From the sequence record SRR20825019_659: 37,804 bases of DNA; one strand, written 5' to 3'. Positions 5,910 to 23,288 of the stretch are shown here, piece after piece. Within the stretch, counting starts at the first letter, position 1. Each line of letters begins with the position of its first letter. Under the pieces are notes generated by a model, which saw only the letters and a list, made by a program, of their open reading frames with translations, ran no database searches and was not told the origin of the DNA. The position numbers and the translations under genes are program-made.

Positions 5910-6853
5910 ATGGAATATTACGTTGGATTGGACGTCAGCCTCAAGAGCACACATATCTGCGTTATGGACCTGGAACGGCAGGTGGTGTGGCGCGGGAGGG
6001 CGGATACGCAGCCGTTGATGATCGCGGAACGGCTGGCGAGATGGAAAGGTCATCTGGCGAAAGTCGGTCTTGAGACAGGTTCGATGACGCCTTGGCTCTA
6101 CCACGAACTGAAGGCTCTGGGGGTTCCTGTGGTCTGCATGGATGCGCGGCGCGCCGCGGACGCCGTGAAGGCTCGGCCTGAGAAGACGGACAAGGCGGAT
6201 GCGCAGGCGCTTGCCGAGATGCTGGCGAGCGGCTGGTATTCAACGGTTCATGTGAAGACAATGGAAAGCCACCGACTGAAGGCGCTGTTGGGAGCACGCG
6301 AGCAGTTGGTCAACGTGAAGCGCCAGTTTTACGGCCAGATCCGAGGGCTTTTGCGTCCGTTCGGCATCAAGATCTCGACACGCTTGTGCGGGTTGAGGCC
6401 GAATTGGTCGGCCTCGACAAGAAGGTGCGCCAGATTACTGCAGCATCGAAGCCATGCTGGCATCTGATGTCGGTGCCAGGTGTTGGGCCGCTGACCTCTC
6501 TGGCCTTCGTGGCGACGGTGGAAGACCCCGGGCGGTTTCGAACAGCCAGGTCCATCGGTTGCTATATCGGCCTGACGCCAAGGAGGTATCAATCCGGCGA
6601 TCGGGATGTGACAGGCTCGATCTCCAAGCAGGGCGACGAGATGTTGCGGCACTACCTGTATGAGGCGGCGGGCTGCCTGCTGACGACAGTGACCGCACCG
6701 TCCGCTCTGCGAAGCTGGGGTTTGAGGCTGGCCAGGCGGCTGGGTCCCAAGCGTGCACGGACGGCGGTCGCCCGCAAACTGGCGGTGCTGCCGCTTGGGC
6801 TTTGGAAAAGGGAGGATCATTTCCGCGCAGTGCCCGGCGGAAAGGCTTTTTAG
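5910..6853 (+). pseudogene. IS110 family transposase/recombinase, internally deleted and frameshifted at ~6375
   Basis: N-terminal half has GLDVS, GLETG, KTDKAD (DEDD); C-terminal half has SVPGVGP, IGLTPRRYQSG, GSISKQG, AVARKLA in a different frame. Confidence 0.9.
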
Positions 6854-11599: not shown

Positions 11600-12490
11600 T
11601 TACTTGGAGATCGCGTCGACGATCTGCCGGGTGTTGTATTCCATCAGCTTGATATAGGTCGGAGCGGGGCCATCGGCCTTTGACAGGGCTTCCGGATAGA
11701 GTTCGCCGCCCGGCTCTGCGCCGGTTGCCTTGGCGATCTGCTCGACAAGGCGGCCGTTGTTCGAGTTCTCGATAAAGTAGACCTTGACGCCGTCGGCCTT
11801 GATCTGGTCGATCAGCTGCGCAACGTCGGATGCCGACGGCTCGACCTCGGTGGACACGCCGAGCGGTGCCAGGAACGTTACGCCGTATTCCGCACCATAA
11901 TAACCAAATGCATCGTGGCTGGTCATGACCTTGCGCTTGTCCTGCGGCACGGCGCCGACTTCGGACTTGATCGATGCATCGAGGGCTTCGATCTTCGTGC
12001 GGTAGGCATCGGCGCTCGCCTTGATGTCGGCGGCGTCTTCCGGGTCGGCCTTGACGAGGGCGTCTTCGATATTGTCGATCCAGACGAGAACATTGGCGGC
12101 GCTGTTCCATACATGTGGGTCGGTGAGCTGCTCGCCGTCTTCTTCCATGGTGTGGGTCTTGATGCCCGTGGAAACGATCACCGGATCGACACCGCCGCCT
12201 GCCGCCTTGGCAAGGCGCTCGAACCAGCCTTCAAGGCCTTCGCCGCTCAAGAAGGTCGCCGCGGCCGCATTGATGGCCTTTGCATCATCGGGCGAGGGTT
12301 CATAGTCGTGGGGGTCGCCATTGGCCGGCACCAGGCTTTTCACGTTGACGTGGTCTCCGCCGACATTCTGCACGACATCGGCAAGAACGGTGAAGCTTGC
12401 CACCACATCGATTGTCTTGGCCGAGGCCGGCCCGAGCGTGGCAAGCAGCATGGCGGAGGAGCCCGCAAGCGTTACGAGGAAGCGTTTCAT
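11600..12490 (-). CDS. Zinc ABC transporter substrate-binding protein, cluster A-I (AztC/ZnuA/TroA-like)
   Basis: Signal peptide MKRFLVTL...ASA; VVASFTVLAD, DPHDYEP, DPHVW, TSHDAFGY; RBS AGGAG before ATG 12490. Confidence 0.9.
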   Translation of the reverse strand: MKRFLVTLAGSSAMLLATLGPASAKTIDVVASFTVLADVVQNVGGDHVNVKSLVPANGDPHDYEPSPDDAKAINAAAATFLSGEGLEGWFERLAKAAGGGVDPVIVSTGIKTHTMEEDGEQLTDPHVWNSAANVLVWIDNIEDALVKADPEDAADIKASADAYRTKIEALDASIKSEVGAVPQDKRKVMTSHDAFGYYGAEYGVTFLAPLGVSTEVEPSASDVAQLIDQIKADGVKVYFIENSNNGRLVEQIAKATGAEPGGELYPEALSKADGPAPTYIKLMEYNTRQIVDAISK

Positions 12491-12507
12491 AGAGTTCTCC
12501 TTGGGAT

Positions 12508-13380
12508 TCAACCCGCAAGATGCGGGCGGGGGATATACCGTCTCAATGCGCCGGACGGGCCCAGCAGCAGAGAGACGGCATAGATAAAGCTGGCGGTCAG
12601 AATGATCGTCGGGCCCGATGCAAAACCGAAATGGTAGGATACAAGCAGACCGACAAAGCCCGAGATGGCGGCACTGGTCGCAGCAATGGCAAACATCACC
12701 GGCAGCGTGCGCGCCCAGAGCTGGGCAATGGCGGCGGGCAGCATCATCATGCCAACGGCCATCAGCGTGCCAAGAGCCTGGAAGCCGGCAACGAGATTGA
12801 CCACCACCAGCAGCAGAAAGATAAAATGATAAAGCGGGCCGTAGCCGCCGACAGAACGCAGGAAACCGGGATCGAAGCACTCGGCGACAAGCGGGCGATA
12901 GACCAGCGCCAGCACGATCAGGGTGAAGGTGGCAATGGCGCCAACGAGGCAGATCGCCTGCGCGTCAATGGCAAGGATCGTGCCGAACAGGATATGCAGA
13001 AGATCGATGTTGGAGCCGCGCAGCGACACGATCAGCACACCGAGCGCCAGCGAGGTGAGGTAGAAGCTGGCAAAGCTCGCATCCTCCTTCAGCGATGTCG
13101 TGCGGCTGACAAGCCCGGACAGAAGCGCGACGCTCAAGCCCGCAACGAGGCCGCCAAGCCCCATGGCGAGCAACGACAGGCTTCCGGCAACCAGAAAGCC
13201 GATCGCAGCACCGGGCAGCACCGCATGGCTCATGGCATCGCCCATCAGGCTCATGCGCCGGAGCATTAAAAGCACACCCACCGGGCCGGAACCAAGGCCG
13301 AGTGCGATCGAACCGACAAGCGCCCGGCGCATGAAGCCGTATTCGGCAAAGGGATGGATAACGAGATCGTAAAGAACCAT
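12508..13380 (-). CDS. Metal ABC transporter permease (AztB/ZnuB-like)
   Basis: RRMSLMGDAMSHAVLPG, LLHILFG, FDP motifs; hydrophobic throughout. Confidence 0.92.
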   Translation of the reverse strand: MVLYDLVIHPFAEYGFMRRALVGSIALGLGSGPVGVLLMLRRMSLMGDAMSHAVLPGAAIGFLVAGSLSLLAMGLGGLVAGLSVALLSGLVSRTTSLKEDASFASFYLTSLALGVLIVSLRGSNIDLLHILFGTILAIDAQAICLVGAIATFTLIVLALVYRPLVAECFDPGFLRSVGGYGPLYHFIFLLLVVVNLVAGFQALGTLMAVGMMMLPAAIAQLWARTLPVMFAIAATSAAISGFVGLLVSYHFGFASGPTIILTASFIYAVSLLLGPSGALRRYIPRPHLAG

Positions 13381-14126
13381 CAGCGGGCCTCCGCCGTGCG
13401 CTGGCAGGTCTCGGCATCTTCATCCCAGGATTCGGCCATGGCGCGGGCTTTGAGAAGATTGCCGGGCGAAAGCGCGGTTTCCGTCGGGCCCCAGGCAACC
13501 GGCTCACGGGCAATCAGAAGTGTGTCGGGAAAATGCCTGCGGACCTGTTCGAAGTCATGCAGCACCGCAATCACCGTGCGGCCCTCGCCGTGCCAGCGCA
13601 ACACGATATCGAGAAGATCGCGGGTGGTCCGCGCATCGATTGCGGTAAAGGGCTCGTCCAGAATGATCATGCGAGAATCCTGCAACAGCAGCCGGGCAAA
13701 CAGGACGCGCTGAAACTGACCGGCGGAAAGCGCCCGGATCGACCGGCCTTCAAAGCCTTCAAGTCCGACAGCGGACAGGGCCGCTTTCGCGCGATCGGCA
13801 ATAGCCCGCGTGACGCCGCCAAAGGCGCCGATATGCTTCCATGCGCCCAGCATCACGGTATCGGCCACCGATAACGGAAAATGCCGGTCGATATCGGCGG
13901 CTTGCGGCAGATAGCCGATATCGCGCAGCGACAGCTTGCCGCGATCGATCTTGCCCTCAGCCGGGGAAAGCTCGCCCATCAGCGTTTTCACAAGCGTTGA
14001 TTTTCCCGCGCCGTTCGGCCCCGCAATCGCCGTGAGGCTGCCCGGCGCAAAACTGCCGGAAAGATGATGAACCGCCGGATGCCGGTCATAGGCAACGGTG
14101 ACATTGTCGAAACGGATGAGGCTCAT
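13380..14126 (-). CDS. Metal ABC transporter ATP-binding protein (AztA/ZnuC-like)
   Basis: GPNGAGKST, GYLPQ, LSAGQFQR, ILDEPF, VLHD; start at ATG 14126 overlaps the stop of the upstream small ORF. Confidence 0.92.
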   Translation of the reverse strand: MSLIRFDNVTVAYDRHPAVHHLSGSFAPGSLTAIAGPNGAGKSTLVKTLMGELSPAEGKIDRGKLSLRDIGYLPQAADIDRHFPLSVADTVMLGAWKHIGAFGGVTRAIADRAKAALSAVGLEGFEGRSIRALSAGQFQRVLFARLLLQDSRMIILDEPFTAIDARTTRDLLDIVLRWHGEGRTVIAVLHDFEQVRRHFPDTLLIAREPVAWGPTETALSPGNLLKARAMAESWDEDAETCQRTAEAR

Positions 14127-14248
14127 GGCAGCGACACCGCCCAGAAAATGGCGAGCCAAAGCAGGACGAGAATGACGGTAACGCCGCCAAGGCGCCCGAG
14201 AACCGGACGCGCCATCAGCGACGAGAGAAACGGATCAGTGGATTTCAA
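14123..14248 (-). CDS. Small single-TM protein (41 aa; not in the ORF track), first gene of the zinc ABC operon
   Basis: (M)KSTDPFLSSLMARPVLGRLGGVTVILVLLWLAIFWAVSLP*; ATGA overlap with the ATPase start; alternative ATG at 14215. Confidence 0.7.
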   Translation of the reverse strand: MKSTDPFLSSLMARPVLGRLGGVTVILVLLWLAIFWAVSLP

Positions 14249-14277: not shown

Positions 14278-14295
14278 TTAATGTTATAACATAAC
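14278..14295. promoter_or_regulatory. Zur box 1
   Basis: TTAATGTTATAACATAAC inside the near-palindrome TTAATGTTAT-AAC-ATAACGTTAA (14278-14300); CTTGAC -35 on the minus strand at 14320-14325. Confidence 0.85.
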
Positions 14296-14342
14296 GTTAA
14301 ATGCTTCTGTGATGTGCGTGTCAAGGTGATCAGTCAGATCTG

Positions 14343-14627
14343 CTAAAAATCGCCGGCAATGCCGACCGCATCGTAAATATCGCTGCGGCGAATATCGACA
14401 ATGGATTTGTGGATCGATAATTGCCGTGTTTCCTGCGGGCCTGCCATGACCAGAATGACGGTTTCCCTCGGCGGGCAGCCGGGGAGGTGGCAGGCGAGTT
14501 CATTGACCGACACGACGGTAGCGCGGTCAAGTGCCAGTATTTCGCGTGTCCACGCCTTGATCGACCGGGCACAGTCAACAACACTGGCGGATTTCGGAGC
14601 CAGAGGGTTCTGGAACGGCCTGCTCAA
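14343..14627 (-). CDS. Small conserved-looking protein with an ExxCxxPGCPPxET motif, coupled to the COG0523 gene
   Basis: 94 aa, NELACHLPGCPPRETVI; TTG start overlaps the GTPase stop (TTGA). Confidence 0.75.
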   Translation of the reverse strand: MSRPFQNPLAPKSASVVDCARSIKAWTREILALDRATVVSVNELACHLPGCPPRETVILVMAGPQETRQLSIHKSIVDIRRSDIYDAVGIAGDF

Positions 14628-15694
14628 GCGGATCTCCTTTGGTTCTTTCGCGACCGTGCCACCAGGACGCTGAACAGTTCGCGTATCGGTTTTTCGGGAA
14701 GGTCCATTCCGATGACGACAATACGGGTGCTGCGGTCGGCATCCGGCCAGTCAGCCAGGCGGTGCGTCGGGTCAAGGCGATGCTGGATGGCATGAACGAC
14801 CAGCGGTCGTTCCCGATCATCGCTCAGGGCCACGAGGCCCTTGATCCGCATCAGGCCGCTGTTTTTCGGGCTGACGATCACCTGAAGAAGAATGGCAAGG
14901 GCATCGGGATCAAGCGGCGTATCGCTTGAAAGGCAGAATGCCGCGATCTCGTCGCCGTGCCGGTTTGGGTCATGCGCGTGGGCGGGATGATCGGACAGCC
15001 TTTCCATCGCCAGCCAGCCGGTCACATCCTCGGGCTTGGTGGTGACAGAATATCGATTTGCGTCGAAGAGCGTGAAAAGGTCGAAAGCGGGTGCGTGGCG
15101 ATCGTGGAAACAGGCCGACGGATTGAGCACGCCAAGGGTTTGCGGCCAGTCATGCTTTTCTCCGGTGGCATCGGTTTTGGTCAGAACCACATGGTCGGCA
15201 AAGGCGAGTTGCTTCCAGCCTTCGATGAAACTGTCCAGTGTTGAGCGGCCATGGAGCACATCGAAGGTGGCGATGACACTTTGAAGGTAGAAGTGTCGGG
15301 CCACCACATGGTCGCGAAGTCCGAGTGCCGGTGCCCCGCCCGGAATGAGGCTGTTGATGATCGGCGCCGGATCCGCAAGGCCCGTGGTCTCTATGACGAC
15401 GCGCTCTATCGGCGGCACATCCCCCTTGATGCGGGCATCATGGAGTTCGAAAAGTGAAACGCGGATCTCACTTGTTGCTGTACAGCAAAGGCAGCCGGTC
15501 GTTGTGCGAAAATAACGCTCCGAACCGGTGCGCACCAGATCGTGATCGATGGCGATGGCGCCAAACTCGTTAATGATAACGGCGGTGTCGCGCATGCGCG
15601 GGTCAGCAACCAGATCATTGATGAGGGTCGTCTTCCCCGAGCCGAGAAACCCTGTCAGAAGCGTCACGGGAACGGGATCGTATTCAGTTTTCAA
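14624..15694 (-). CDS. COG0523 / CobW-family G3E GTPase (putative zinc metallochaperone) 1
   Basis: [32 protein letters not shown]; His-containing linker; C-terminal RIKG...VVIG domain. Confidence 0.92.
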   Translation of the reverse strand: MKTEYDPVPVTLLTGFLGSGKTTLINDLVADPRMRDTAVIINEFGAIAIDHDLVRTGSERYFRTTTGCLCCTATSEIRVSLFELHDARIKGDVPPIERVVIETTGLADPAPIINSLIPGGAPALGLRDHVVARHFYLQSVIATFDVLHGRSTLDSFIEGWKQLAFADHVVLTKTDATGEKHDWPQTLGVLNPSACFHDRHAPAFDLFTLFDANRYSVTTKPEDVTGWLAMERLSDHPAHAHDPNRHGDEIAAFCLSSDTPLDPDALAILLQVIVSPKNSGLMRIKGLVALSDDRERPLVVHAIQHRLDPTHRLADWPDADRSTRIVVIGMDLPEKPIRELFSVLVARSRKNQRRSA

Positions 15695-15821
15695 ATGCGC
15701 CTCGCACTCGTGGAGAAATCTGCGTTTTTACCGGTTTTGCGGAACCGGTCTCGGCTAGATGGATCTGGCAGGCCATTGACAGACAGCGGGTAAGCAATGC
15801 TAGGACAGTCGTCAAGGAATT

Positions 15822-15839
15822 GTTATGTTATCACATAAC
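15822..15839. promoter_or_regulatory. Zur box 2, between the divergent COG0523 genes
   Basis: GTTATGTTATCACATAAC, with inverted GTTATG/CATAAC arms. Confidence 0.85.
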
Positions 15840-15863
15840 TCATACAAAAAACGAGGCAAAATT

Positions 15864-16862
15864 ATGGTTGACGCTATGCCCGCAAAAACACCCGTTACCG
15901 TCCTGACGGGCTATCTCGGCTCGGGGAAGACGACGCTTCTCAACCGGATCCTGACGGAGCAGCACGGGAAGAAATTCGCTGTCATCGTCAATGAGTTCGG
16001 CGATGTCGGTATCGACAACGATCTTGTGGTCGATACCGATGAAGAAGTCTTCGAAATGAACAATGGCTGCATCTGCTGCACAGTGCGCGGCGACCTGATC
16101 CGCATTCTTGAAAGCCTGATGCGGCGGCGTGGCCGCTTCGACGGCATCCTGATCGAGACAACCGGTCTTGCGGACCCGGCGCCGGTGGCGCAAACCTTCT
16201 TCGTCGACGAGGATGTGCGTTCGAAGACCAGGCTGGATTCCATTATCACGCTCGTCGATGCGAAGCACTTTCTGGCCGAGTTCGACAAGGCGCATGAAGC
16301 GCAGGAACAGGTGGCCTTTGCCGACACCATCATCCTCAACAAGGTCGACCTTGTGGATGCGGACGCGCTGGCGCTTGCCGAAGAGCGCATCCGTCGGCTT
16401 AACCCGACGGCAAGCATTGTCAGATCGGAGCGCTGTGCCGTTGATATCGCGAGCCTTCTTGACCGCAACGCCTTTGATCTCGACCGGATCCTCGAGGTCG
16501 AGCCGGAATTTCTGGACGAGGAGCACGATCACGAGCATGACGATCATGTGAGCAGCTTTTCGCTGGTTGAAAGCGGTCCGATGGATCCGGCATCGTTCTT
16601 CCCCTGGCTTCAGGAAACCGTTCAGACGTTTGGCGTCGATATGCTGCGGATGAAGGGGATCATTGCCTTCGACGGCGATGACGAGCGCTATGTGGTGCAG
16701 GGTGTCCACATGTTGCTGGAGGGCGAGCACCAGCGCGCCTGGAAAGACGGCGAGGCCCGGACCACACGTCTGGTTTTCATTGGCCGCGACCTGCCGAAAG
16801 ACATCATAGCCGAAGGGTTCGCCAAATGCCGTGCCGCCAAAGCCGACGCTCTCCAGGCATAG
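15864..16862 (+). CDS. COG0523 / CobW-family G3E GTPase (putative zinc metallochaperone) 2
   Basis: [58 protein letters not shown]. Confidence 0.94.
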
Positions 16863-16935
16863 CTTTATTGAACGGCGGCGCAGATACCGTACGTGGGCGC
16901 GTCAGGCATTGCGGGAAAGCGCGAAGGAAAACCAT

Positions 16936-17394
16936 GTGACGAAAGATCTTTCCGGCCTGATGATGTCTGGCGTCGGTGAGCGATCGGAAGGACGGCGCGT
17001 GCCCGCCGGCCGTCTCGGCAAGAACGAGGCGCTTGTGCTTTCCGTGCTTCAAAAAGCGGATCGCCCGCTGGGAGCCTATGAGATCCTCGATGATCTCAGG
17101 GATGCCGGACTAAAGGCACCGCTCCAGATCTACCGTGCGCTCAAAAGATTGCAGGCAGCCGGACAGGTCCATCGCCTCGAGAGCCTCAACGCCTTTGTTT
17201 TCTGTCACCTTTCCTGTGCCGAGACGAGCCATCCGGAGAAAACCATTTTCATGATCTGCGACCGGTGCGGATATGTTTCGGAACTGCATGACGAAGCGGT
17301 TTTCTCTGCGCTGTCGGGCCATGCCCGGAAACGGTCATTCGCCATCGCCTCGACCATGATTGAATTGCACGGCGTCTGCGTGCGCTGTCTGTGA
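16936..17394 (+). CDS. zur: Fur-family zinc uptake regulator (alphaproteobacterial Zur type)
   Basis: PLGAYEILDDLR, APLQIYRAL, VHRLESLNAF, two CxxC motifs (CDRC, CVRC); GTG start after AAGGA (ATG 16960 is an alternative). Confidence 0.85.
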   Translation: MTKDLSGLMMSGVGERSEGRRVPAGRLGKNEALVLSVLQKADRPLGAYEILDDLRDAGLKAPLQIYRALKRLQAAGQVHRLESLNAFVFCHLSCAETSHPEKTIFMICDRCGYVSELHDEAVFSALSGHARKRSFAIASTMIELHGVCVRCL

Positions 17395-17405
17395 TCGCAA
17401 CATCG

Positions 17406-18191
17406 TTACTGAACGGCGGTATGCGGCATGATCCATGGTCTGCCGGTAACGGGATGCGGCGTGAGCGTGGCATTGACCTTGTACACCGCCTTCAAGCGTT
17501 CAGCCGTCAGCACGGTTTCCGGTGTTCCCTCGGCCACAAGAGATCCCTTTTTCAGCAGGCAGAGCCGGTCGCAGAACATGGCGGCGAGGCTGAGATCATG
17601 CAGTGCCGCGATCACCGTCACGCCGAGATCGCGCACAAACTCAAGAAGCTGGAGCTGGTGATGCAGGTCAAGATGATTTGTTGGCTCGTCCAGAACCAGA
17701 ACGGCCGGTTGCTGGACAAGCGCACGCGCCAGAAGAACCCGCTGCCGTTCGCCACCGGACAGTGAGCGGAAGGAACGGCTTTGAAAGGCTTCAAGCTCAA
17801 GCAGTTCGATGGCCGCCTCAATCAGCGCGCGGTCGTGTGGCGTGTCACCGGAAAACGCTGACCGGTGCGGGGTTCGTCCCATGGCGATCAGATCCCTGAC
17901 ATTCAGCGGGAAATCGCCCGGAACATTCTGCAGCACGGCACCCACATGGCGGGCCATCCAGCGGCGTGGCTTTCGCCAGGCATTTTCACCATTGATGCAT
18001 ACCGTCCCGCTTGTGGGCCGGTTGACGCCGTAGACGGTTCGCAACAGGCTCGACTTTCCAGCGCCGTTCGGGCCAAGCAATCCAAGGATTTCTCCCGGCT
18101 CGACCACCAATGACACGTTGTCTACGAGCACGTTGCCGGCGATGGCAAAGGAAACGGCTTCGAGGTGAAGTCTGCCTGCGCTGACTGTCAT
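17406..18191 (-). CDS. Metal-chelate (FecE/FepC-type) ABC ATP-binding protein
   Basis: GPNGAGKSS, MGRTPH, LSGGERQRV, LDEPTNHLD, LHDLSLA. Confidence 0.93.
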   Translation of the reverse strand: MTVSAGRLHLEAVSFAIAGNVLVDNVSLVVEPGEILGLLGPNGAGKSSLLRTVYGVNRPTSGTVCINGENAWRKPRRWMARHVGAVLQNVPGDFPLNVRDLIAMGRTPHRSAFSGDTPHDRALIEAAIELLELEAFQSRSFRSLSGGERQRVLLARALVQQPAVLVLDEPTNHLDLHHQLQLLEFVRDLGVTVIAALHDLSLAAMFCDRLCLLKKGSLVAEGTPETVLTAERLKAVYKVNATLTPHPVTGRPWIMPHTAVQ

Positions 18192-19357
18192 GACGCTTGC
18201 CCCCTGGCACTGGCATCCGCCATCAGCAGCCAGATGAAAAATGGTCCCCCCACGAGGGCGGTGACAATCCCCACCGGCAGTTCCAGCGGTGCGATGATCG
18301 AGCGCGCAACAAGATCTGCGCCAACGGTAAAGCCGGCGCCCAGCAAGGCTGCTGCGGGCAGCGCGCGCCGGTGATTGGTGCCGACGAGAAATCGAACCAT
18401 ATGCGGCATGATGAGGCCGACAAACCCGATAACCCCCGAAACCGATACGGTGATGCCGGTGAGCGCTGCGGCGAGCACAAACATCGACTTTCGAAATTTG
18501 CCCACATCAAGACCGAGGGCGTTTGCACCTTCGTCGCCGGCCAGCAGAAGATCAAGCCTGCGGGCTTGCAAAAGCATCAGTCCAAGGCCGGCCGCAAGGG
18601 CCGCAAGGGGGATCGGCAGAAGCTTCCACTGGGCAGTGCCAAAACCGCCAAGCGTCCAGAACAATACGCGGGAGGCCAGTTGAGGGTCAGGTGAGGTCAG
18701 CACCAGAAGACTGGTCACGGCGGAGAGCATGGAACTCATGGCGACGCCCCCCAGAATGAGCCTGGTCGGGGTCATTTGCCCGCCTGAGCGTGCAATCCAG
18801 AATACCACCACAAGGGTCAGTAGGGCACCGGCGAAGGCGGCAAGGTTAAGGGTGAACGCTCCAAGCCCGACCAGTCCCCAGCGCATGACGATCACAGCCC
18901 CGGTCGCAGCGCCGGACGACACGCCAAGAATGCTCGGGCTTGCAAGAGGATTTCGCACCAGCGCCTGTATCGCCATGCCGGTAACGGCAAGACAGGCACC
19001 GACCGAGGCCGCCATGAGGACGCGTGGCAGCCGCGCCTTCAGGATGATGGTTTCGTACGCGTCCCGCCAGTCCGGGGTGACAAGGGCGTCGCCGCCCATC
19101 GCATGCCCCAGAATCGAAACAGCCGTCCGTGATGGAATGCGCACGGAACCCAGCATCAGCCCGCCAAATGCTGCGGCAATGAGCAGGGCTGACATGATTG
19201 CCATGGCAAGGCCGTAACGCACGGAGGTTTCATCCGGCCGGATCGCGCTTGGTGAATTTGGCAACAGCGGCGTGCCGAAAGGTAGATCGTTGCGCAAAAC
19301 GGCGAGGAGCGCTTGCTTTCGCGCCGGGTCTGCCGCCTTTTGCGTCGGAGTGTGCAT
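18188..19357 (-). CDS. FecCD/BtuC-family ABC permease
   Basis: RLPR, RNPLASPSILGVSSGA, GVIGFVGLIMPH, ELPVGIVTALVGGPFF. Start position uncertain. Confidence 0.92.
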   Translation of the reverse strand: MHTPTQKAADPARKQALLAVLRNDLPFGTPLLPNSPSAIRPDETSVRYGLAMAIMSALLIAAAFGGLMLGSVRIPSRTAVSILGHAMGGDALVTPDWRDAYETIILKARLPRVLMAASVGACLAVTGMAIQALVRNPLASPSILGVSSGAATGAVIVMRWGLVGLGAFTLNLAAFAGALLTLVVVFWIARSGGQMTPTRLILGGVAMSSMLSAVTSLLVLTSPDPQLASRVLFWTLGGFGTAQWKLLPIPLAALAAGLGLMLLQARRLDLLLAGDEGANALGLDVGKFRKSMFVLAAALTGITVSVSGVIGFVGLIMPHMVRFLVGTNHRRALPAAALLGAGFTVGADLVARSIIAPLELPVGIVTALVGGPFFIWLLMADASARGQAS

Positions 19358-19393
19358 CTATGTAGACCTCATGACCCGAAAAGGCAGGGCTGT

Positions 19394-20398
19394 TTATTCC
19401 GCGAAGGCTTCGGGATGGAAAGCACGGGCCATCGTTTCAACGGCATCGATCGAGCTTGGTCCGGGCTGACCGCGAACGGAATCGATCATGACTAAATTTT
19501 CGCCTTTAATGGCCTGCACATCGGCGATGGTCGGGTTGGCCGTCAGAACGGCGATGCGTGCCGCACCAAGGTCGCGTTCCGGGTCGTCGACCACTTTGCC
19601 ACCGGCCGTGCCGGAATAGAAGACCACGATCTGCTGTGGGTTGCGGTCAGCGATCTGCTCCCATGAAACCTTGCCGTAGCGGTTGTCGATATCGGCGAAA
19701 ATGTTTTGCCCACCGGCGCGCGCAACCGCCTGGGACAACATGGTGTTGCCAAGCACCGCATTGGGTGCGGATTCCCCGCCGTTGAAGATGAAGACCGGCA
19801 CGGCCTCGGAACCCTCGAGTTTTGTCTCGACGGCCTTCAAGCGCTCGGAAATGCTGGCGATCAGTGCTTCGCCGCGGTCGGAAACACCGAAGATACCCGC
19901 TATCGATCGAATCTCGGCATAAAGGTCTTCAAACCCGAATTTCCCCAGATTGCAGCCCTCAGGGTTGAGGTGGGTGTTCATGCCCAGGTCATGAAGCTGG
20001 TCCCGGGTGTGGCGCGATTCACTGAAGCCATCGGGATAGCCGGCATAGACAAAGTCTGCCTTGGCATCGATCAGCTGTTCGGTGGTTGCCACCAGCGGGG
20101 AAAGGACAGGCACCTGCCCGTAGGCTTTCTCGTACCGGGGGCTGACCGTCAGTGCCGCCATATAAGAGGTTCCTGCCATATGGTCCTCAAGCCCAAGCGC
20201 CAGCATCATCTCAGTTGCATTGTTGCTGAGCGTGACCGCGTGTGCCGGGGGCGTCTCATACGTTGTCGTGTAGCCGCAGTTTTCGTCAATATAGGGATAT
20301 GCCGTGCTGTCGGCCAAAGCGGTCTCGGCAACCACGCCCGAGGCGAGGAAGATGGTAATAGCAGCCATGTGCTGCCATCTGAGGTCTGGAAAGGGCAT
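19394..20398 (-). CDS. Class III (siderophore/cobalamin-type) ABC substrate-binding protein
   Basis: Signal peptide; YPYIDENCG, TEMMLALGL, AGGQNIF, VSWEQI, AFHPEAF; RBS AGGAG. Confidence 0.9.
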   Translation of the reverse strand: MPFPDLRWQHMAAITIFLASGVVAETALADSTAYPYIDENCGYTTTYETPPAHAVTLSNNATEMMLALGLEDHMAGTSYMAALTVSPRYEKAYGQVPVLSPLVATTEQLIDAKADFVYAGYPDGFSESRHTRDQLHDLGMNTHLNPEGCNLGKFGFEDLYAEIRSIAGIFGVSDRGEALIASISERLKAVETKLEGSEAVPVFIFNGGESAPNAVLGNTMLSQAVARAGGQNIFADIDNRYGKVSWEQIADRNPQQIVVFYSGTAGGKVVDDPERDLGAARIAVLTANPTIADVQAIKGENLVMIDSVRGQPGPSSIDAVETMARAFHPEAFAE

Positions 20399-20428
20399 TC
20401 GGAAACTCCTTGAATTTAGACGCTTTGC

Positions 20429-21436
20429 TCAGGCTTCAATCGTCTGGTCGGAAAGGGCGGGCAGAACCTCCGCGGCAAAGCACTCCATGGCCGCAAGCGC
20501 CACATCATTGCCAAGCATGCTGTTGCCGCTGAAAAGGCAGCGCAGAGCCTGCACGCCTGTATCGCGGCGGAGCGCACGGATCTGCTCGACGCACATCTGT
20601 GGCGTTCCGAAAATCGTATAGCCGTCAATCATTTGTTGCTGGCTTCGTGGGTGCGGTGGCGGTGTCCCGCGCCTGCGGGCAAGATTGGCGCGCCGCTTAT
20701 TGAGCAGGTCCGTCAAAACCTCCAGCCGCTCTTCAGCTTCGGCGCGGCGCGGCGCGATTACGACATATCTGGACAGTGAAGAGGCCTTCAACGCATCCTT
20801 GTTACCGCCATGCCGGTCAAGCGCTTTTACGAATTCCGGCAACTGTCTGTTTTCATTCGGCTCAAGGCTCAACAGAAGCGGAAAGCCATTGGCTGCGGCC
20901 AGATCAATCGTTTCCCGGGAAACGCCTGCCACATAGATCGGCGGATGCGGCTTCTGCACAACCGGAGGGCCAACGCCGACGCTTTCGAAGCGCCATGTCG
21001 GGCCGTTGGCACAAACGGTTTCGTCTTTCCATGCAGCGAGCATGATTGCCAACGCTTCGGAAAAACGGGTTCGTGCGTCTTCGGGCGCAAGCTCAAGTGC
21101 CTTCAATGTTTGCGGGTCGGTGCCACGGCCAATGCCGATGTCAACGCGTCCATGGCTTTGAAAATCAAGCTGGGCAATCTGCTCGGCCAGCAGCAGCGGA
21201 TGATAAAGCGGCAGCACGAGGATGGAGGTTCCAAAACGAAGGCGTTGAGTGCGTGCAAGAATTTCGGCGCCCAGTATCAATGTTGAAGGGTAGGGTATGG
21301 CTTCCCGTTGAAAATGAAATTCGTTGAACCAGATGCCACCGAAGCCGAGCGTATCGGCACGCTCGACAAGAGCCATCAACGCACGATGATCCCCCATCCT
21401 TTCATCGCGGGAGAAACCGGCGAGATCAATGCGCAT
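20429..21436 (-). CDS. LLM class (luciferase-like) flavin-dependent monooxygenase
   Basis: ADTLGFGGIWFNEFHF, ARTQRLRFGT, HPLLLAEQIAQLD, GRVDIGIGRG, PVVQKPHPPIYVAG, FAAEVLP; RBS GGAGG. Confidence 0.92.
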   Translation of the reverse strand: MRIDLAGFSRDERMGDHRALMALVERADTLGFGGIWFNEFHFQREAIPYPSTLILGAEILARTQRLRFGTSILVLPLYHPLLLAEQIAQLDFQSHGRVDIGIGRGTDPQTLKALELAPEDARTRFSEALAIMLAAWKDETVCANGPTWRFESVGVGPPVVQKPHPPIYVAGVSRETIDLAAANGFPLLLSLEPNENRQLPEFVKALDRHGGNKDALKASSLSRYVVIAPRRAEAEERLEVLTDLLNKRRANLARRRGTPPPHPRSQQQMIDGYTIFGTPQMCVEQIRALRRDTGVQALRCLFSGNSMLGNDVALAAMECFAAEVLPALSDQTIEA

Positions 21437-21553
21437 GACCAGACCTCCATGGAAGGGAGGCTTTGAGCCCGAGGCGCCAGCGCTCCGCGTTGCCTGTCCG
21501 TTTGCACAATTTCTTTTCTGCCTGCTTTCGATTTGAACTGCGGCTGTTTTAAC

Positions 21554-21573
21554 TGTAATGATATATCATTACA
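21554..21573. promoter_or_regulatory. Zur box 3, upstream of the LLM-ABC operon
   Basis: Perfect 20 bp palindrome TGTAATGATATATCATTACA; its core 18-mer aligns with boxes 1 and 2. Confidence 0.8.
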
Positions 21574-21810
21574 ATAACCGGTAATGCAGTATCGATCCAT
21601 GAGGTGCGCTGCCCCCCCTGATGTGCGACCTGCATCGCAGATTTTGTGGTCGCCGCTCGAAGAATAGTCAGGGGGCGTGCTCACCTGAAGTCGAATACTA
21701 TGGAATGTCCTTTTTCCTTGTCGTATATGCATGTGCGGTCGAAAAACCGACATGCGCATCCGGTTTCCGAGCGTGTCACAAGAATAGTTGCAGCGTTGCT
21801 AATCGCGTGA

Positions 21811-21826
21811 GTTAAGAATATCTTAA
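21811..21826. promoter_or_regulatory. Candidate CtrA binding site upstream of the diguanylate cyclase
   Basis: GTTAA-GAATATC-TTAA is the reverse complement of TTAA-N7-TTAAC. Confidence 0.5.
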
Positions 21827-21865
21827 GTTCTAAATTCGATTGCGAAAAGGTTCTGGAGCAATGAC

Positions 21866-23288
21866 TTGCACCCCCGGATAAGCCTGCGCCAGATCGCGCT
21901 TGGCGTTTCTTTCTTTGTATTGGTCTTTCTGTCGGCCTGGATCAGCATCCAAACGCGGTCTATCGGAGGCGTGGCCGTTTTCTGGTTACCGAACGCGCTG
22001 CTTCTCGGTCTCTGGGTGCGGTTTCCGCATAGCCTGTCCATCCTTTCCATTTGCGGCGCAACGCTCGGCTATCTGACCGCGGATCTGTCCAACGGAACGG
22101 AGCTGGCCCTCTCGCTGGTTTTCACGTCCGCCAATTTTTTGAGTATCGGTATTGGCTATTTTCTGGTGGTGCGTATTCGTCGGCGTGAAATCGGCGTCGT
22201 CGATACGGTGATGATCCTGCAACTGTTTCTGGCTGTGCTGGGTGCCAGCGCCTTTGCGGCGCTGTTCGTGGCATCGGTCGGCCATCTGCTTTTTCACTGG
22301 TCTTTTATGCGCGGCTGGGCCCACTGGTTCGTGGCAGAATCCGTGAATTACGTGACCATATTACCGGTTCTGCTGGCCATTCCCGAAATCAACACATTGC
22401 AATGGCGGGTGTCTCTGCCGTTCAAAATCAATGCCGGTGATCGGCGATGCGCGGAAATACTGCCATTCGGCTGTCTGGTTGTCGTTGGTGTCCTGGCATT
22501 TTCAATCGGCGGTCCCGGAGCCATTGCCTTTCCGCTGCCGGCGCTGTTGTGGTGCGCGGTGACGTATGAACTGTTCACGGTTTCCGGCCTGATATTGCTC
22601 TTCGGAATCTGGTCTCAGCTCGGCATTACGATGGGCGTTTTTTTGCCAGTCCCCGAAGATGTGTCGCAGGATTATCTTCAGTTGTCTCTGCTTCTCGGCG
22701 TGGCGTTCATTGCCGTTTGCCCAACCATGCTTGTGGTGGTGATGCTGTCGCGCAACAGGCTGTTGGACGAACTCAAAATGCTGGCCTCTCGCGATACATT
22801 GAGCGAACTCAAAAACCGCCGCGCTTTTTTCGAGGAAGCTGCCGATCTGTCGGATGGTGCGAAGGTAAGCGGAGAGGCAATGAGTTTGCTCATGATCGAC
22901 ATCGACAATTTCAAGGGGATTCAATGACACCCATGGCCATCAGGCCGGTGACGAGGCCATTCGCCGCATCGCCAGAACGCTTGCGTGCGTAATCAGAGAG
23001 AGCGACATCCTCGCGCGCATGGGCGGCGAGGAATTCGCCATCCTTGCCTCCGGTTTGTCGCACGCCCAGCTCGAAGGTTTTGCGGAGCGGCTACGGCAGG
23101 CTTGCGCGCAGGCGACAGTCTGCCCAAACGGTGATCGTTTCAAGGTTACGGTGAGCATCGGAGCGATTCATGCCAGGCATTGCGATATCGAGATAGACAG
23201 GATGATCCATCTGGCTGACAGAGCGCTTTATGAGGCCAAACGATCTGGCCGCAACCAGGTCGTTCTTCAGACCGTCGATCAAGCCTGA
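21866..23288 (+). pseudogene. MASE1-type membrane sensor diguanylate cyclase, frameshifted at ~22920
   Basis: Multi-TM N-terminus (FWLPNA); removing one T gives DIDNFKGINDTHGHQAGD...RESDILARMGGEEF...ADRALYEAKRSGRN. Confidence 0.88.

What the first reader, a model, noticed from the sequence alone, without database searches (positions are those of the whole stretch)
17406..21573. Zur-boxed operon pairing a luciferase-like monooxygenase with a siderophore-type ABC importer: candidate zinc-chelate piracy and oxidative release system
Seen: a perfect palindrome TGTAATGATATATCATTACA, matching the two other Zur boxes here, lies ~120 bp upstream of a four-gene operon (LLM monooxygenase, class III binding protein, FecCD permease, FecE-type ATPase). 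The operon has no metallophore synthesis gene, TonB receptor or flavin reductase. Known: class III/FecCD importers carry chelated metals or cofactors, and some LLM-superfamily enzymes (NtaA, EmoA) oxidatively cleave the chelators NTA and EDTA. Inference: under zinc starvation this operon imports a foreign Zn-chelate and the LLM enzyme destroys the ligand to free the metal. I know of no characterised system of this composition. The LLM has EFHF where the family usually has EHH, hinting at a distinct subfamily. Alternative: the binding protein's YPxxxxNCG motif recalls the proposed actinobacterial F420-0 importers, so the cargo could be a flavin/deazaflavin cofactor.
Basis: partly seen in the sequence, partly recalled or inferred. 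Interest (0 to 1): 0.85.

Follow-up and report, generated by a model that had tools for sequence, protein, structure and literature searches.

The report
Zinc-switched cobalt-type importer with oxygenase
A four-gene metal-uptake operon that in most related bacteria is switched by vitamin B12 is here wired to the zinc sensor instead, which suggests an uptake route for organically bound cobalt or zinc that has not been characterised.

Summary
A perfect 20-nt palindrome (21554-21573) lies 117 nt upstream of a minus-strand operon: luciferase-like monooxygenase (LLM), class III binding protein (SBP), FecCD permease, ATPase. Its core matches the two other Zur-type boxes in the window and the znuA/znuC operators of related genera. 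The operon sits in a znuCBA, 2x COG0523, zur island.

The same module occurs in other Alphaproteobacteria. Of 39 operons with readable upstream DNA, 32 sit behind a cobalamin riboswitch (6 of these also carry a Zur-like box). Three carry a Zur box only (this window and two MAGs), and 4 carry neither. The SBP's nearest characterised relative is CbtJ of the S. meliloti cobalt importer CbtJKL (27% identity, shared YPxxxENCG motif). It does not resemble the BtuF-like SBPs of the same genomes. In Caulobacter the LLM follows a riboswitch-controlled siderophore-type TonB receptor.

Best reading: a cobalt-regulon importer of a chelated divalent metal, rewired to Zur for zinc, with the LLM acting on the organic ligand. 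Cargo and LLM chemistry are inferred, not shown. The F420/flavin alternative is weak. It is a new variant of a known kind.

The parts
21554..21573 (.). Perfect 20-nt palindrome, putative Zur operator of the LLM operon
   Evidence: unique in the window. Core ATGATA|TATCAT and flanks TGTA../..TACA match the consensus of the znu, COG0523 and zur boxes in the window and in related genomes.
20429..21436 (-). Luciferase-like monooxygenase (335 aa), first gene of the operon
   Evidence: PF00296 171.3 bits; below the cutoff of every NCBIfam LLM subfamily; conserved family with a WFNEFHF motif. AF2 pLDDT 87.8; nearest folds are LuxA-like FMN monooxygenases.
19394..20398 (-). Class III (Peripla_BP_2) substrate-binding protein with an N-terminal signal-like segment
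   Evidence: 27% identity to CbtJ, E 8e-28, with shared YPxxxENCG and a second Cys. E 0.40 against a BtuF-like SBP; 75% mean column identity among 18 orthologues.
18188..19357 (-). FecCD-family permease
   Evidence: PF01032 309.7 bits; 40% identity to S. meliloti CbtK.
17406..18191 (-). ABC ATPase; 4-nt overlap with the permease gene
   Evidence: 43% identity to CbtL.
16831..17394 (+). zur (the real start is probably near 16960); convergent with the ATPase gene, stops 11 nt apart
   Evidence: FUR family. NF008646 Zur is the best hit (84 bits, below cutoff 167)..
15825..16862 (+). COG0523 (CobW/ZigA-like) GTPase upstream of zur; likely start at 15864
15823..15838 (.). Zur-type box between the two divergent COG0523 genes
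14624..15694 (-). Second COG0523 GTPase
14279..14294 (.). Zur-type box upstream of znuC
11600..14159 (-). znuC (13380-14159), znuB (12508-13380), znuA (11600 to about 12500)
   Evidence: ABC_tran, ABC-3 and ZnuA domains.

Best explanation
The operon encodes a Zur-repressed type-II ABC importer of the CbtJ / EitA / 'TIGR03868-like' binding-protein family, with a cytoplasmic flavin-dependent LLM enzyme as its first gene.

When zinc is replete, Zn-Zur sits on the palindrome and blocks transcription. Under zinc starvation the four genes are made. The SBP then captures a small organic complex of a divalent metal in the periplasm, the FecCD/ATPase pair pumps it in, and the LLM modifies the organic ligand so that the metal is released.

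The module is ancestrally part of the cobalamin regulon, where it most likely supplies cobalt. In this lineage the riboswitch has been replaced by a Zur operator, so the same machinery serves zinc acquisition alongside ZnuABC.

Shown here: gene content, the operator match, conservation of the module, and the split between riboswitch and Zur control among relatives. Inferred: repression by Zur, the chelated nature of the cargo, zinc as the metal carried here, and the LLM's action on the ligand.
For: 1. Operator. The perfect palindrome shares its even-spaced core with the boxes at znuC and COG0523/zur in the window and with the znuA/znuC operators of Nitratireductor and Pelagibacterium. In genome G003 the pattern WATGWTATMWCATW has 3 sites, all beside zinc genes (COG0523; zur; ZIP/amidohydrolase). 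The reversed control pattern had 0 hits in all 5 genomes searched.

2. Family and regulation. 18 of 41 genome loci carry LLM-SBP-FecCD-ATPase. Of 39 type-1 operons with readable upstream DNA, 32 have RF00174 (6 also have a conserved Zur-like box), 3 have a Zur box only, and 4 have neither. On the LLM tree the Zur-only forms (window; L006+L007) are not sisters, so the switch happened at least twice.

3. Metal rather than B12.
- The SBP matches the cobalt importer's CbtJ (E 8e-28, shared motif) but not the riboswitch-controlled BtuF-like SBP of G001 (E 0.40).
- G001 already has riboswitch-controlled BtuB-like TBDR+SBP+FecCD+ATPase, HupE and CbtA. G003 lacks CbiC and keeps its BtuB-like system and metE under riboswitches, yet puts the LLM operon under Zur.

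4. Chelate rather than free ion.
- The LLM is also linked to ferrichrome/BtuF-like ABC systems (13 loci). In three loci it follows a riboswitch-controlled TonB receptor; the one examined with NCBIfam (Caulobacter, L028) hits only the siderophore-receptor model, not BtuB.
- Foldseek neighbours of the SBP include chelate binders such as the CeuE Ni-His complex.

5. Same cargo class under both regulators. There are 0 columns where the three Zur-only SBPs share a residue that is absent from the riboswitch-only SBPs.

6. Inference: Zn(II) is redox-inert, so keeping the LLM in Zur-only operons argues that it acts on the ligand and not on the metal.
Against: - No expression, binding or transport data exist; no RNA run holds the stretch.
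- CbtJKL is reported to move Co(II) without any LLM (review PMC7689651, passages read). S. meliloti has no LLM at that locus, and 4 metagenome operons have a riboswitch directly before the SBP with no LLM. The LLM is therefore dispensable for transport.
- The LLM also occurs without a nearby transporter: inside a cob biosynthesis cluster (L013) and near methylmalonyl-CoA mutase (L039). That fits a role in corrinoid metabolism.
- Identity to CbtJKL is only 27/40/43%.
- No sigma-70-like promoter was found around the box.
- The box half-sites also resemble a classical Fur box with one extra central base (recalled, not tested).
- All five related genomes checked have 2-3 ZnuA-family SBPs, so any zinc role is auxiliary.
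- No genome is held for the window, so its B12 status is unknown.
Confidence: 0.45

Rival explanations
1. Corrinoid salvage. The importer brings in cobalamin or an incomplete corrinoid, and the LLM processes it, for example by reducing it or removing a ligand. Zur control here serves zinc sparing, by favouring B12-dependent enzymes when zinc is short.
For: Riboswitch control in 32 of 39 operons. The LLM lies inside a cob cluster in L013 and near methylmalonyl-CoA mutase in L039. In Caulobacter a zinc-requiring MetE rises in a zur mutant (PMC4176598, passage read), so a zinc-methionine-B12 link exists.
Against: The SBP shows no BLASTP similarity to the BtuF-like SBP of G001 (E 0.40), scores 39 bits against a cutoff of 234 on the BtuF model, and BtuF ranks only 23rd and 39th by fold. 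G001 and G003 already have riboswitch-controlled BtuB-like systems. G003, which lacks CbiC, puts those under B12 control but the LLM operon under Zur. The LLM-linked TonB receptor of Caulobacter is siderophore-type, not BtuB-type.
Confidence: 0.15
2. Free-ion importer. Like CbtJKL as published, the transporter carries unchelated Co2+/Zn2+, and the LLM has a separate cytoplasmic job unrelated to releasing the cargo.
For: CbtJKL is described as a Co(II) importer (PMC7689651, PMC11009365, passages read). Some operons lack the LLM. The SBP has many invariant His/Asp/Glu residues.
Against: The LLM is the first gene in most type-1 operons. It is also tied to two other chelate-type uptake systems: ferrichrome-like ABC importers and a siderophore-type TonB receptor. 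Class III SBPs with solved ligands bind chelates, haem, B12 or oxyanions (titles).
Confidence: 0.15
3. Cobalt for zinc. The cargo is cobalt even here, and zinc-starved cells import cobalt to substitute for zinc in some enzymes.
For: No SBP residue separates Zur-type from riboswitch-type proteins. The nearest characterised relative is a cobalt importer.
Against: G003 lacks CbiC and so has little known use for cobalt. Co/Zn replacement is recalled from phytoplankton work only.
Confidence: 0.08
4. The palindrome is bound by another Fur-family regulator (Fur/Mur type), or it regulates a different gene, so the operon is not zinc-responsive.
For: Half-sites TAATGAT/ATCATTA resemble the classical Fur box (recalled). 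The two other boxes in the window have T where this one has A at the +/-3 positions. No promoter was predicted.
Against: The central spacing is the same even spacing as the znu/zur boxes. A/T variation at +/-3 also occurs in the boxes beside ZIP/amidohydrolase in G003 and in the Nitratireductor LLM boxes. The divergent GGDEF gene is split and about 290 nt away. In L006/L007 the operon lies next to zur and COG0523 behind a canonical box.
Confidence: 0.07
5. Flavin/deazaflavin (F420-0-like) cofactor import for the LLM: the first reader's alternative.
For: The best NCBIfam hits of the three transporter proteins are the putative F420-0 ABC models, and the LLM's best hit is an F420-type LLM subfamily.
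Against: All of these scores are below cutoff (143.7/392.4, 261.4/437.35, 290.2/372.4, 105.4/166.9). CbtJ, a cobalt protein, scores higher on the same SBP model (182.7). CofH reached its cutoff in 0 of 5 related genomes. Relatives use cobalamin riboswitches, not FMN riboswitches. The nearest LLM folds are FMN luciferases.
Confidence: 0.03

Closest known systems
CbtJKL cobalt ABC importer of Sinorhizobium meliloti (pSymB)
   Same: Peripla_BP_2 SBP + FecCD permease + ATPase. The SBP shares the N-terminal YPxxxENCG motif and a second Cys. Relatives of the window operon are controlled by a cobalamin riboswitch, as cbtJKL is.
   Different: Only 27/40/43% identity. The window has no riboswitch and a Zur box instead. 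An LLM gene leads the operon, and S. meliloti has none at cbtJKL. The original paper (PMC3165532) is not held; I saw only two reviews' passages.
COG0523 family split: CobW (B12 riboswitch, cobalt) versus Zur-regulated zinc paralogues
   Same: One protein family placed under either a B12 riboswitch or Zur according to the metal it serves (PMC2770081, passages read). Both kinds of context recur here.
   Different: That precedent concerns a GTPase chaperone. Here the same swap affects a whole importer-plus-enzyme operon, and in L006/L007 a DUF1636 ferredoxin-like gene as well.
Zur-regulated metallophore importers (staphylopine Cnt, pseudopaline, and FecCD-type systems of Pseudomonas); recalled, not searched here
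   Same: Zinc-starvation-induced uptake of a chelated metal; staphylopine-type ligands also carry cobalt and nickel.
   Different: Those loci encode ligand synthesis and/or other transporter classes and have no LLM. Here there are no synthesis genes, and the family is mostly B12-regulated.
EDTA/NTA monooxygenases EmoA and NtaA with their chelate uptake system; recalled
   Same: An LLM-superfamily enzyme that destroys a metal chelator after ABC import. This is the mechanistic analogy.
   Different: The window LLM is a 335-aa LuxA-like enzyme. No such monooxygenase appears among the 30 PDB sequence hits or the Foldseek matches listed through rank 50. No flavin reductase partner was found nearby.
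Helicobacter pylori CeuE (Ni-His complex)
   Same: A class III SBP that binds a simple metal-amino-acid complex (PDB 4ls3 title, rank 27). This is a precedent for non-siderophore chelate cargo.
   Different: Low identity (17%), a nickel system, and no LLM.

Membership tests
Zur regulon (Fur-family operator) | Palindromic operator matching the lineage's Zur boxes | tested here: met
   the core ATG[T/A]TA|TA[A/T]CAT and the TGTA/TACA flanks are shared with the znuC and COG0523/zur boxes here and with the znuA/znuC boxes of Nitratireductor and Pelagibacterium.
Zur regulon (Fur-family operator) | Operator overlaps a promoter of the regulated operon | tested here: inconclusive
   The box lies 117 nt upstream of the ATG. 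The sigma-70 consensus scan found no promoter in 21380-21900.
Zur regulon (Fur-family operator) | Zinc- and Zur-dependent repression | not testable with these tools
   No RNA run holds the stretch; EMSA and qPCR are needed.
CbtJKL-type cobalt ABC importer | Peripla_BP_2 SBP + FecCD permease + ABC ATPase | tested here: met
CbtJKL-type cobalt ABC importer | Orthology to S. meliloti CbtJ/K/L | tested here: inconclusive
   27/40/43% identity. E 8e-28 with a shared motif. Both proteins hit EitA and TIGR03868 below cutoff. Same subfamily neighbourhood, not shown to be orthologous.
CbtJKL-type cobalt ABC importer | Cobalamin riboswitch in the leader | tested here: not met
   None in the window; present in 32 of 39 related operons.
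BtuFCD vitamin B12 importer | BtuF-like binding protein | tested here: not met
   BtuF model 39.4 bits against cutoff 234. E 0.40 against the BtuF-like SBP of G001.
Putative F420-0 ABC transporter (TIGR03868/03869/03873) | Scores above the curated cutoffs | tested here: not met
   143.7/392.4, 261.4/437.35, 290.2/372.4.
Putative F420-0 ABC transporter (TIGR03868/03869/03873) | Host lineage makes or uses F420 | tested here: not met
   CofH (TIGR03551) reached its cutoff in 0 of 5 genomes carrying the operon. The window's own genome is not held.
Luciferase-like monooxygenase superfamily (PF00296) | Domain match above the gathering score | tested here: met
   171.3 bits against 27.9. TIM-barrel model, pLDDT 87.8, nearest to LuxA-like enzymes.
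NtaA/EmoA-type chelator monooxygenases | Membership of that LLM subfamily, plus a flavin reductase partner | tested here: not met
   Not among the 25 NCBIfam families shown of 27. Not among the 30 PDB sequence hits or the Foldseek matches listed through rank 50. No flavin reductase among the ORFs scanned.

The most novel reading that the evidence does not exclude
Alphaproteobacteria have an uncharacterised uptake route for organically complexed cobalt and zinc. It comprises a CbtJ-like ABC importer (in some genomes a siderophore-type TonB receptor), a dedicated LuxA-like flavin monooxygenase and sometimes a DUF1636 ferredoxin. The enzyme dismantles the foreign ligand in the cytoplasm to free the metal. 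Evolution moves the module between a cobalamin riboswitch and Zur according to which metal the cell needs. This would be the first ligand-destroying metal-release enzyme for natural cobalt or zinc chelates, and a handle on the unidentified strong cobalt and zinc ligands of sea water.
Probability: 0.25. Interest if true: 0.85.

Novelty: new variant of a known kind. Interest (0 to 1): 0.62.

Why it matters
- How bacteria take up cobalt and zinc that are bound to organic ligands is largely unknown. The review read here states that no cobalt-specific outer-membrane receptor has been confirmed (PMC7689651).
- This module is conserved and uncharacterised. All database names for the LLM are generic.
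- Its repeated switching between a B12 riboswitch and Zur is a natural experiment that points to a shared Co/Zn cargo class.
- It supplies concrete reagents for ligand fishing and enzyme assays: an unusually conserved SBP and a distinct LLM subfamily.
- Three full-text searches linking LLMs with cobalamin riboswitches or with Zur found nothing relevant.

Tried and rejected
- F420/flavin import: models below cutoff and CofH absent.
- LLM as a BluB substitute: BluB is present over cutoff in G001 and G002, which also carry the LLM, and absent over cutoff in G003-G005. Not informative.
- Expression: no RNA holder is listed for the stretch.
- Wider survey: 0 of 400 other genomes drawn from the class of G001 had the LLM at E<=1e-50, but only 5 candidates per genome were scored.
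- Plasmid collection: no near-identical DNA. Protein hits were all below 60% identity.
- Homology of the window leader to the Nitratireductor leaders: nothing beyond the box itself.
- Conserved fifth gene downstream of the ATPase: none in 13 loci.
- Zur-type-specific SBP residues: none. The window alone differs at 5 otherwise invariant columns: N82A, I85V, E113K, R143H, P295Q.
- Foldseek on the SBP and LLM models: general class only. ESM Atlas: generic LLM clusters.
- Earlier scan notes: nothing.
- Papers: the CbtJKL paper PMC3165532 is not held. The supplementary Zur-site and riboswitch tables of PMC2770081 could not be seen and may list this operon type.
- The box-like site in Pelagibacterium (L044/L055) lies beside transposase-like and AraC-like genes, with no zinc gene.

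Full report
**1. What is in the window**

The palindrome TGTAATGATATATCATTACA is at 21554-21573. It is the only match in the window with up to 3 mismatches, and 0 of 100 shuffles gave any match. A degenerate search for its core finds three sites: 14279-14294, 15823-15838 and 21556-21571. That is 5 strand-matches against 0.22 expected, and no shuffle reached 5.

The operon is on the minus strand:
- LLM, 21436-20429 (PF00296, 171 bits)
- Peripla_BP_2 binding protein (SBP), 20398-19394
- FecCD permease, 19357-18188
- ABC ATPase, 18191-17406

The gaps are 30 nt and 36 nt, followed by a 4-nt overlap. GGAGG lies 7 nt before the LLM start, and the box ends 117 nt upstream of it.

The operon closes a zinc island. 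The island holds znuC-znuB-znuA (14159-11600, minus strand) behind the 14279 box. It also holds two divergent COG0523 GTPase genes around the 15823 box. zur lies after the plus-strand COG0523 gene and is convergent with the ATPase gene.

The divergent MASE1-GGDEF gene starts about 290 nt from the palindrome. It is split: GGDEF profile positions 1-46 end one ORF, and positions 79-161 sit in another. No Rfam family matches anywhere in the window.

**2. Is the box a Zur box?**

Aligned centre to centre, the boxes all share ATG[T/A]TA|TA[A/T]CAT, mostly with TGTA/TACA-like flanks. The set comprises:
- the three window boxes
- the znuA/znuC intergenic boxes of two Nitratireductor genomes and one Pelagibacterium genome
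- the boxes of genome G003 beside a COG0523 gene, beside zur, and between a ZIP transporter gene and an amidohydrolase gene

The pattern WATGWTATMWCATW was searched in five whole genomes. It hit 3 sites in G003 (all next to zinc genes) and 1 each in G001 and G004. It hit none in G002 and G005, and the reversed control pattern hit none in any genome.

Published Rhizobiales Zur boxes are described as short palindromes, but their sequences are in figures I could not read (PMC7029138 and PMC12183173, passages). The half-sites also recall a classical Fur box with one extra central base. That is my recollection, so I keep a small rival for another Fur-family regulator.

**3. The same operon elsewhere**

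A scan of species-representative genomes with the LLM gave 41 loci. By tblastn with the window's proteins:
- 18 loci have LLM-SBP-FecCD-ATPase, with the SBP 61-75% identical to the window's.
- 13 loci have a different SBP-FecCD-ATPase set followed by the LLM.
- 4 loci have a convergent transporter.
- 2 loci have a divergent transporter.
- 1 locus (L005) has the LLM behind a riboswitch with no type-1 SBP found.
- 2 loci have no transporter.
- 1 locus (L041) is a distant relative.

Rfam was run over all 41 loci and found a cobalamin riboswitch (RF00174) in 35. In 31 it lies on the same strand directly upstream of the LLM-bearing operon. The six loci without one are L006, L007, L012, L016, L039 and L041.

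Other arrangements seen:
- L006 and L007 (two MAGs) have zur and a COG0523 gene divergent from box, DUF1636, LLM, SBP, FecCD, ATPase.
- Four Nitratireductor loci have both a riboswitch and a conserved box (ATGTTATA[T/C]CAT) between the aptamer and the start codon.

A metagenome scan with the SBP alignment added 23 loci. I built a local nhmmer profile from 20 riboswitches. It recovered every held-out Rfam hit and gave no hit in the seven riboswitch-free sources. It found a riboswitch in 18 of the 23 loci. Three of the other five have too little upstream DNA to judge. Two more loci showed the dual arrangement.

The tally, counting the window, covers 39 type-1 operons with readable upstream DNA. 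These loci were not de-replicated.

| Upstream control | Operons |
|---|---|
| Cobalamin riboswitch (6 of these also carry a Zur-like box) | 32 |
| Zur box only | 3 |
| Neither | 4 |

On an LLM tree the window falls in a well-supported 12-row clade with Nitratireductor, Rhodobacterales and L006/L007. The Zur-only forms are not sisters, so the switch happened more than once.

**4. Cobalt or B12?**

The S. meliloti cobalt importer cbtJKL was located on pSymB behind its riboswitch.

The binding protein points to cobalt:
- The window SBP aligns to CbtJ over 338 residues (27% identity, E 8e-28).
- CbtJ hits the same NCBIfam models as the window SBP, EitA and TIGR03868, and scores higher on both.
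- The window SBP has no significant BLASTP match (E 0.40) to the BtuF-like SBP of the riboswitch-controlled TonB-receptor operon in Nitratireductor G001.

The related genomes already cover B12 and cobalt ions by other means:
- G001 has five riboswitches. They precede cobW-cobN-cobG-cobH, HupE-cobU-cobO, CbtA, a BtuB-like receptor with its ABC system, and the LLM operon.
- The LLM module is therefore additional to both a B12 importer and cobalt-ion transporters in that genome.
- G003 carries the Zur-only form and has no CbiC. Its two riboswitches precede a BtuB-like uptake operon and metE.
- So G003 keeps B12 uptake under B12 control while the LLM operon is under Zur.
- CbiC is present in 8 of 10 operon-bearing genomes tested.

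**5. Chelate or free ion, and what the LLM does**

The LLM family is well defined:
- WFNEFHF and 57 other columns are invariant among 27 members.
- Every database name for it is generic.
- It falls below the cutoff of every NCBIfam LLM subfamily.
- Its model folds like the LuxA-type FMN monooxygenases and not like the larger NTA/EDTA enzymes.

The LLM travels with three kinds of uptake machinery:
- the CbtJ-like ABC system
- a ferrichrome/BtuF-like ABC system
- in Caulobacter and Brevundimonas, a riboswitch-controlled TonB receptor. Only the Caulobacter receptor (L028) was run against NCBIfam; its sole hit at the threshold used (E <= 1e-10) is the siderophore-receptor model.

TonB receptors and ferrichrome-type SBPs carry chelates. 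That favours an organic cobalt complex over a free ion.

The SBP is unusually conserved, with 75% mean column identity across orders. No position separates the Zur-type from the riboswitch-type proteins. The cargo class is therefore probably the same under both regulators.

Zinc is redox-inert. Keeping the LLM in the Zur-only operons therefore suggests that it acts on the ligand. This last step is inference.

Evidence on the other side:
- The LLM is missing from some riboswitch-SBP operons, and in L095 a DUF1636 gene takes its place.
- The LLM lies inside a cob cluster in L013 and near methylmalonyl-CoA mutase in L039.
- These observations keep a corrinoid-processing role alive.

DUF1636 is a thioredoxin-like [2Fe-2S] ferredoxin relative (PMC4520260, section read). 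It leads a riboswitch-controlled cob operon in Phaeobacter (bioRxiv 10.64898/2025.12.19.695462, passage read). DUF1636 therefore joins COG0523 and this operon as a third element found under both regulators.

**6. Verdict**

The zinc-chelate idea survives in modified form. This is a cobalt-regulon, CbtJ-like importer with an accessory LLM, and in this lineage it is placed under Zur.

No paper in the library links LLMs with cobalamin riboswitches or with Zur. The swap parallels the known CobW versus Zur-regulated split in COG0523 (PMC2770081, passages read).

It is a new variant of a known kind. Cargo, metal and enzyme chemistry remain to be shown. No genome is held for the window and no RNA data exist. 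I therefore could not check regulation or the host's B12 status.

Noticed in passing
window 21866-23288: The divergent MASE1-GGDEF diguanylate cyclase gene is split. One ORF ends after GGDEF profile positions 1-46, and a separate ORF (23019-23288) holds positions 79-161. It is probably a frameshifted or partly deleted pseudogene.
   Followed up: partly
window 14624-16862: Two COG0523 (CobW/ZigA-like) GTPase genes diverge from a single Zur-type box, and zur follows the plus-strand copy. A small ORF (14330-14584) between the minus-strand copy and znuC has no family.
   Followed up: partly
window 5910-6467: An IS110-family transposase fragment (DEDD_Tnp_IS110) lies about 5 kb from the zinc island.
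   Followed up: no
L028, L036 and L037 (Caulobacter, Brevundimonas): The two Brevundimonas loci (L036, L037) hold three cobalamin riboswitches within about 8 kb: before a TonB receptor followed by the LLM, before the minus-strand uptake operon, and before cobW. In Caulobacter (L028) Rfam found two (before the siderophore-type TonB receptor followed by the LLM, and before cobW), and the minus-strand operon there is CbtA-SBP-FecCD-ATPase. These look like cobalt-supply islands with a receptor that does not resemble BtuB (tested for L028 only).
   Followed up: partly
L012 (Mesobaculum littorinae): The operon appears degraded. The LLM, permease and ATPase matches are fragmented, the SBP frame holds a stop codon, and no riboswitch or box is found.
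   Followed up: partly
L006 6368-6832, L007, L095 820-1206: A DUF1636 (thioredoxin-like ferredoxin) gene precedes the LLM in the two Zur-type MAG operons. In one riboswitch-type metagenome operon it replaces the LLM.
   Followed up: partly
L086 3-1420; G004 contig C12: znuB/znuA genes lie directly upstream of a riboswitch-controlled LLM operon (L086). In Pelagibacterium, znuA lies about 3 kb from a riboswitch-cobW-cobN cluster. Zinc and cobalt gene sets are repeatedly neighbours.
   Followed up: no
G004 and G005 (whole genomes behind L017 and L010): Both genomes have CbiC, so they make the corrin ring, but neither has a BluB match above cutoff. Their source of the lower ligand is unclear.
   Followed up: no
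L079 4501-6459: Two tandem SBP genes (71% and 53% identical to the window SBP) follow the LLM. Neither a riboswitch nor a Zur box was found upstream.
   Followed up: no
window SBP residues 82, 85, 113, 143, 295: The window's SBP alone differs at five columns that are invariant in the other 17 orthologues: N82A, I85V, E113K, R143H, P295Q. This may be drift on a long branch or a shift in ligand preference.
   Followed up: no
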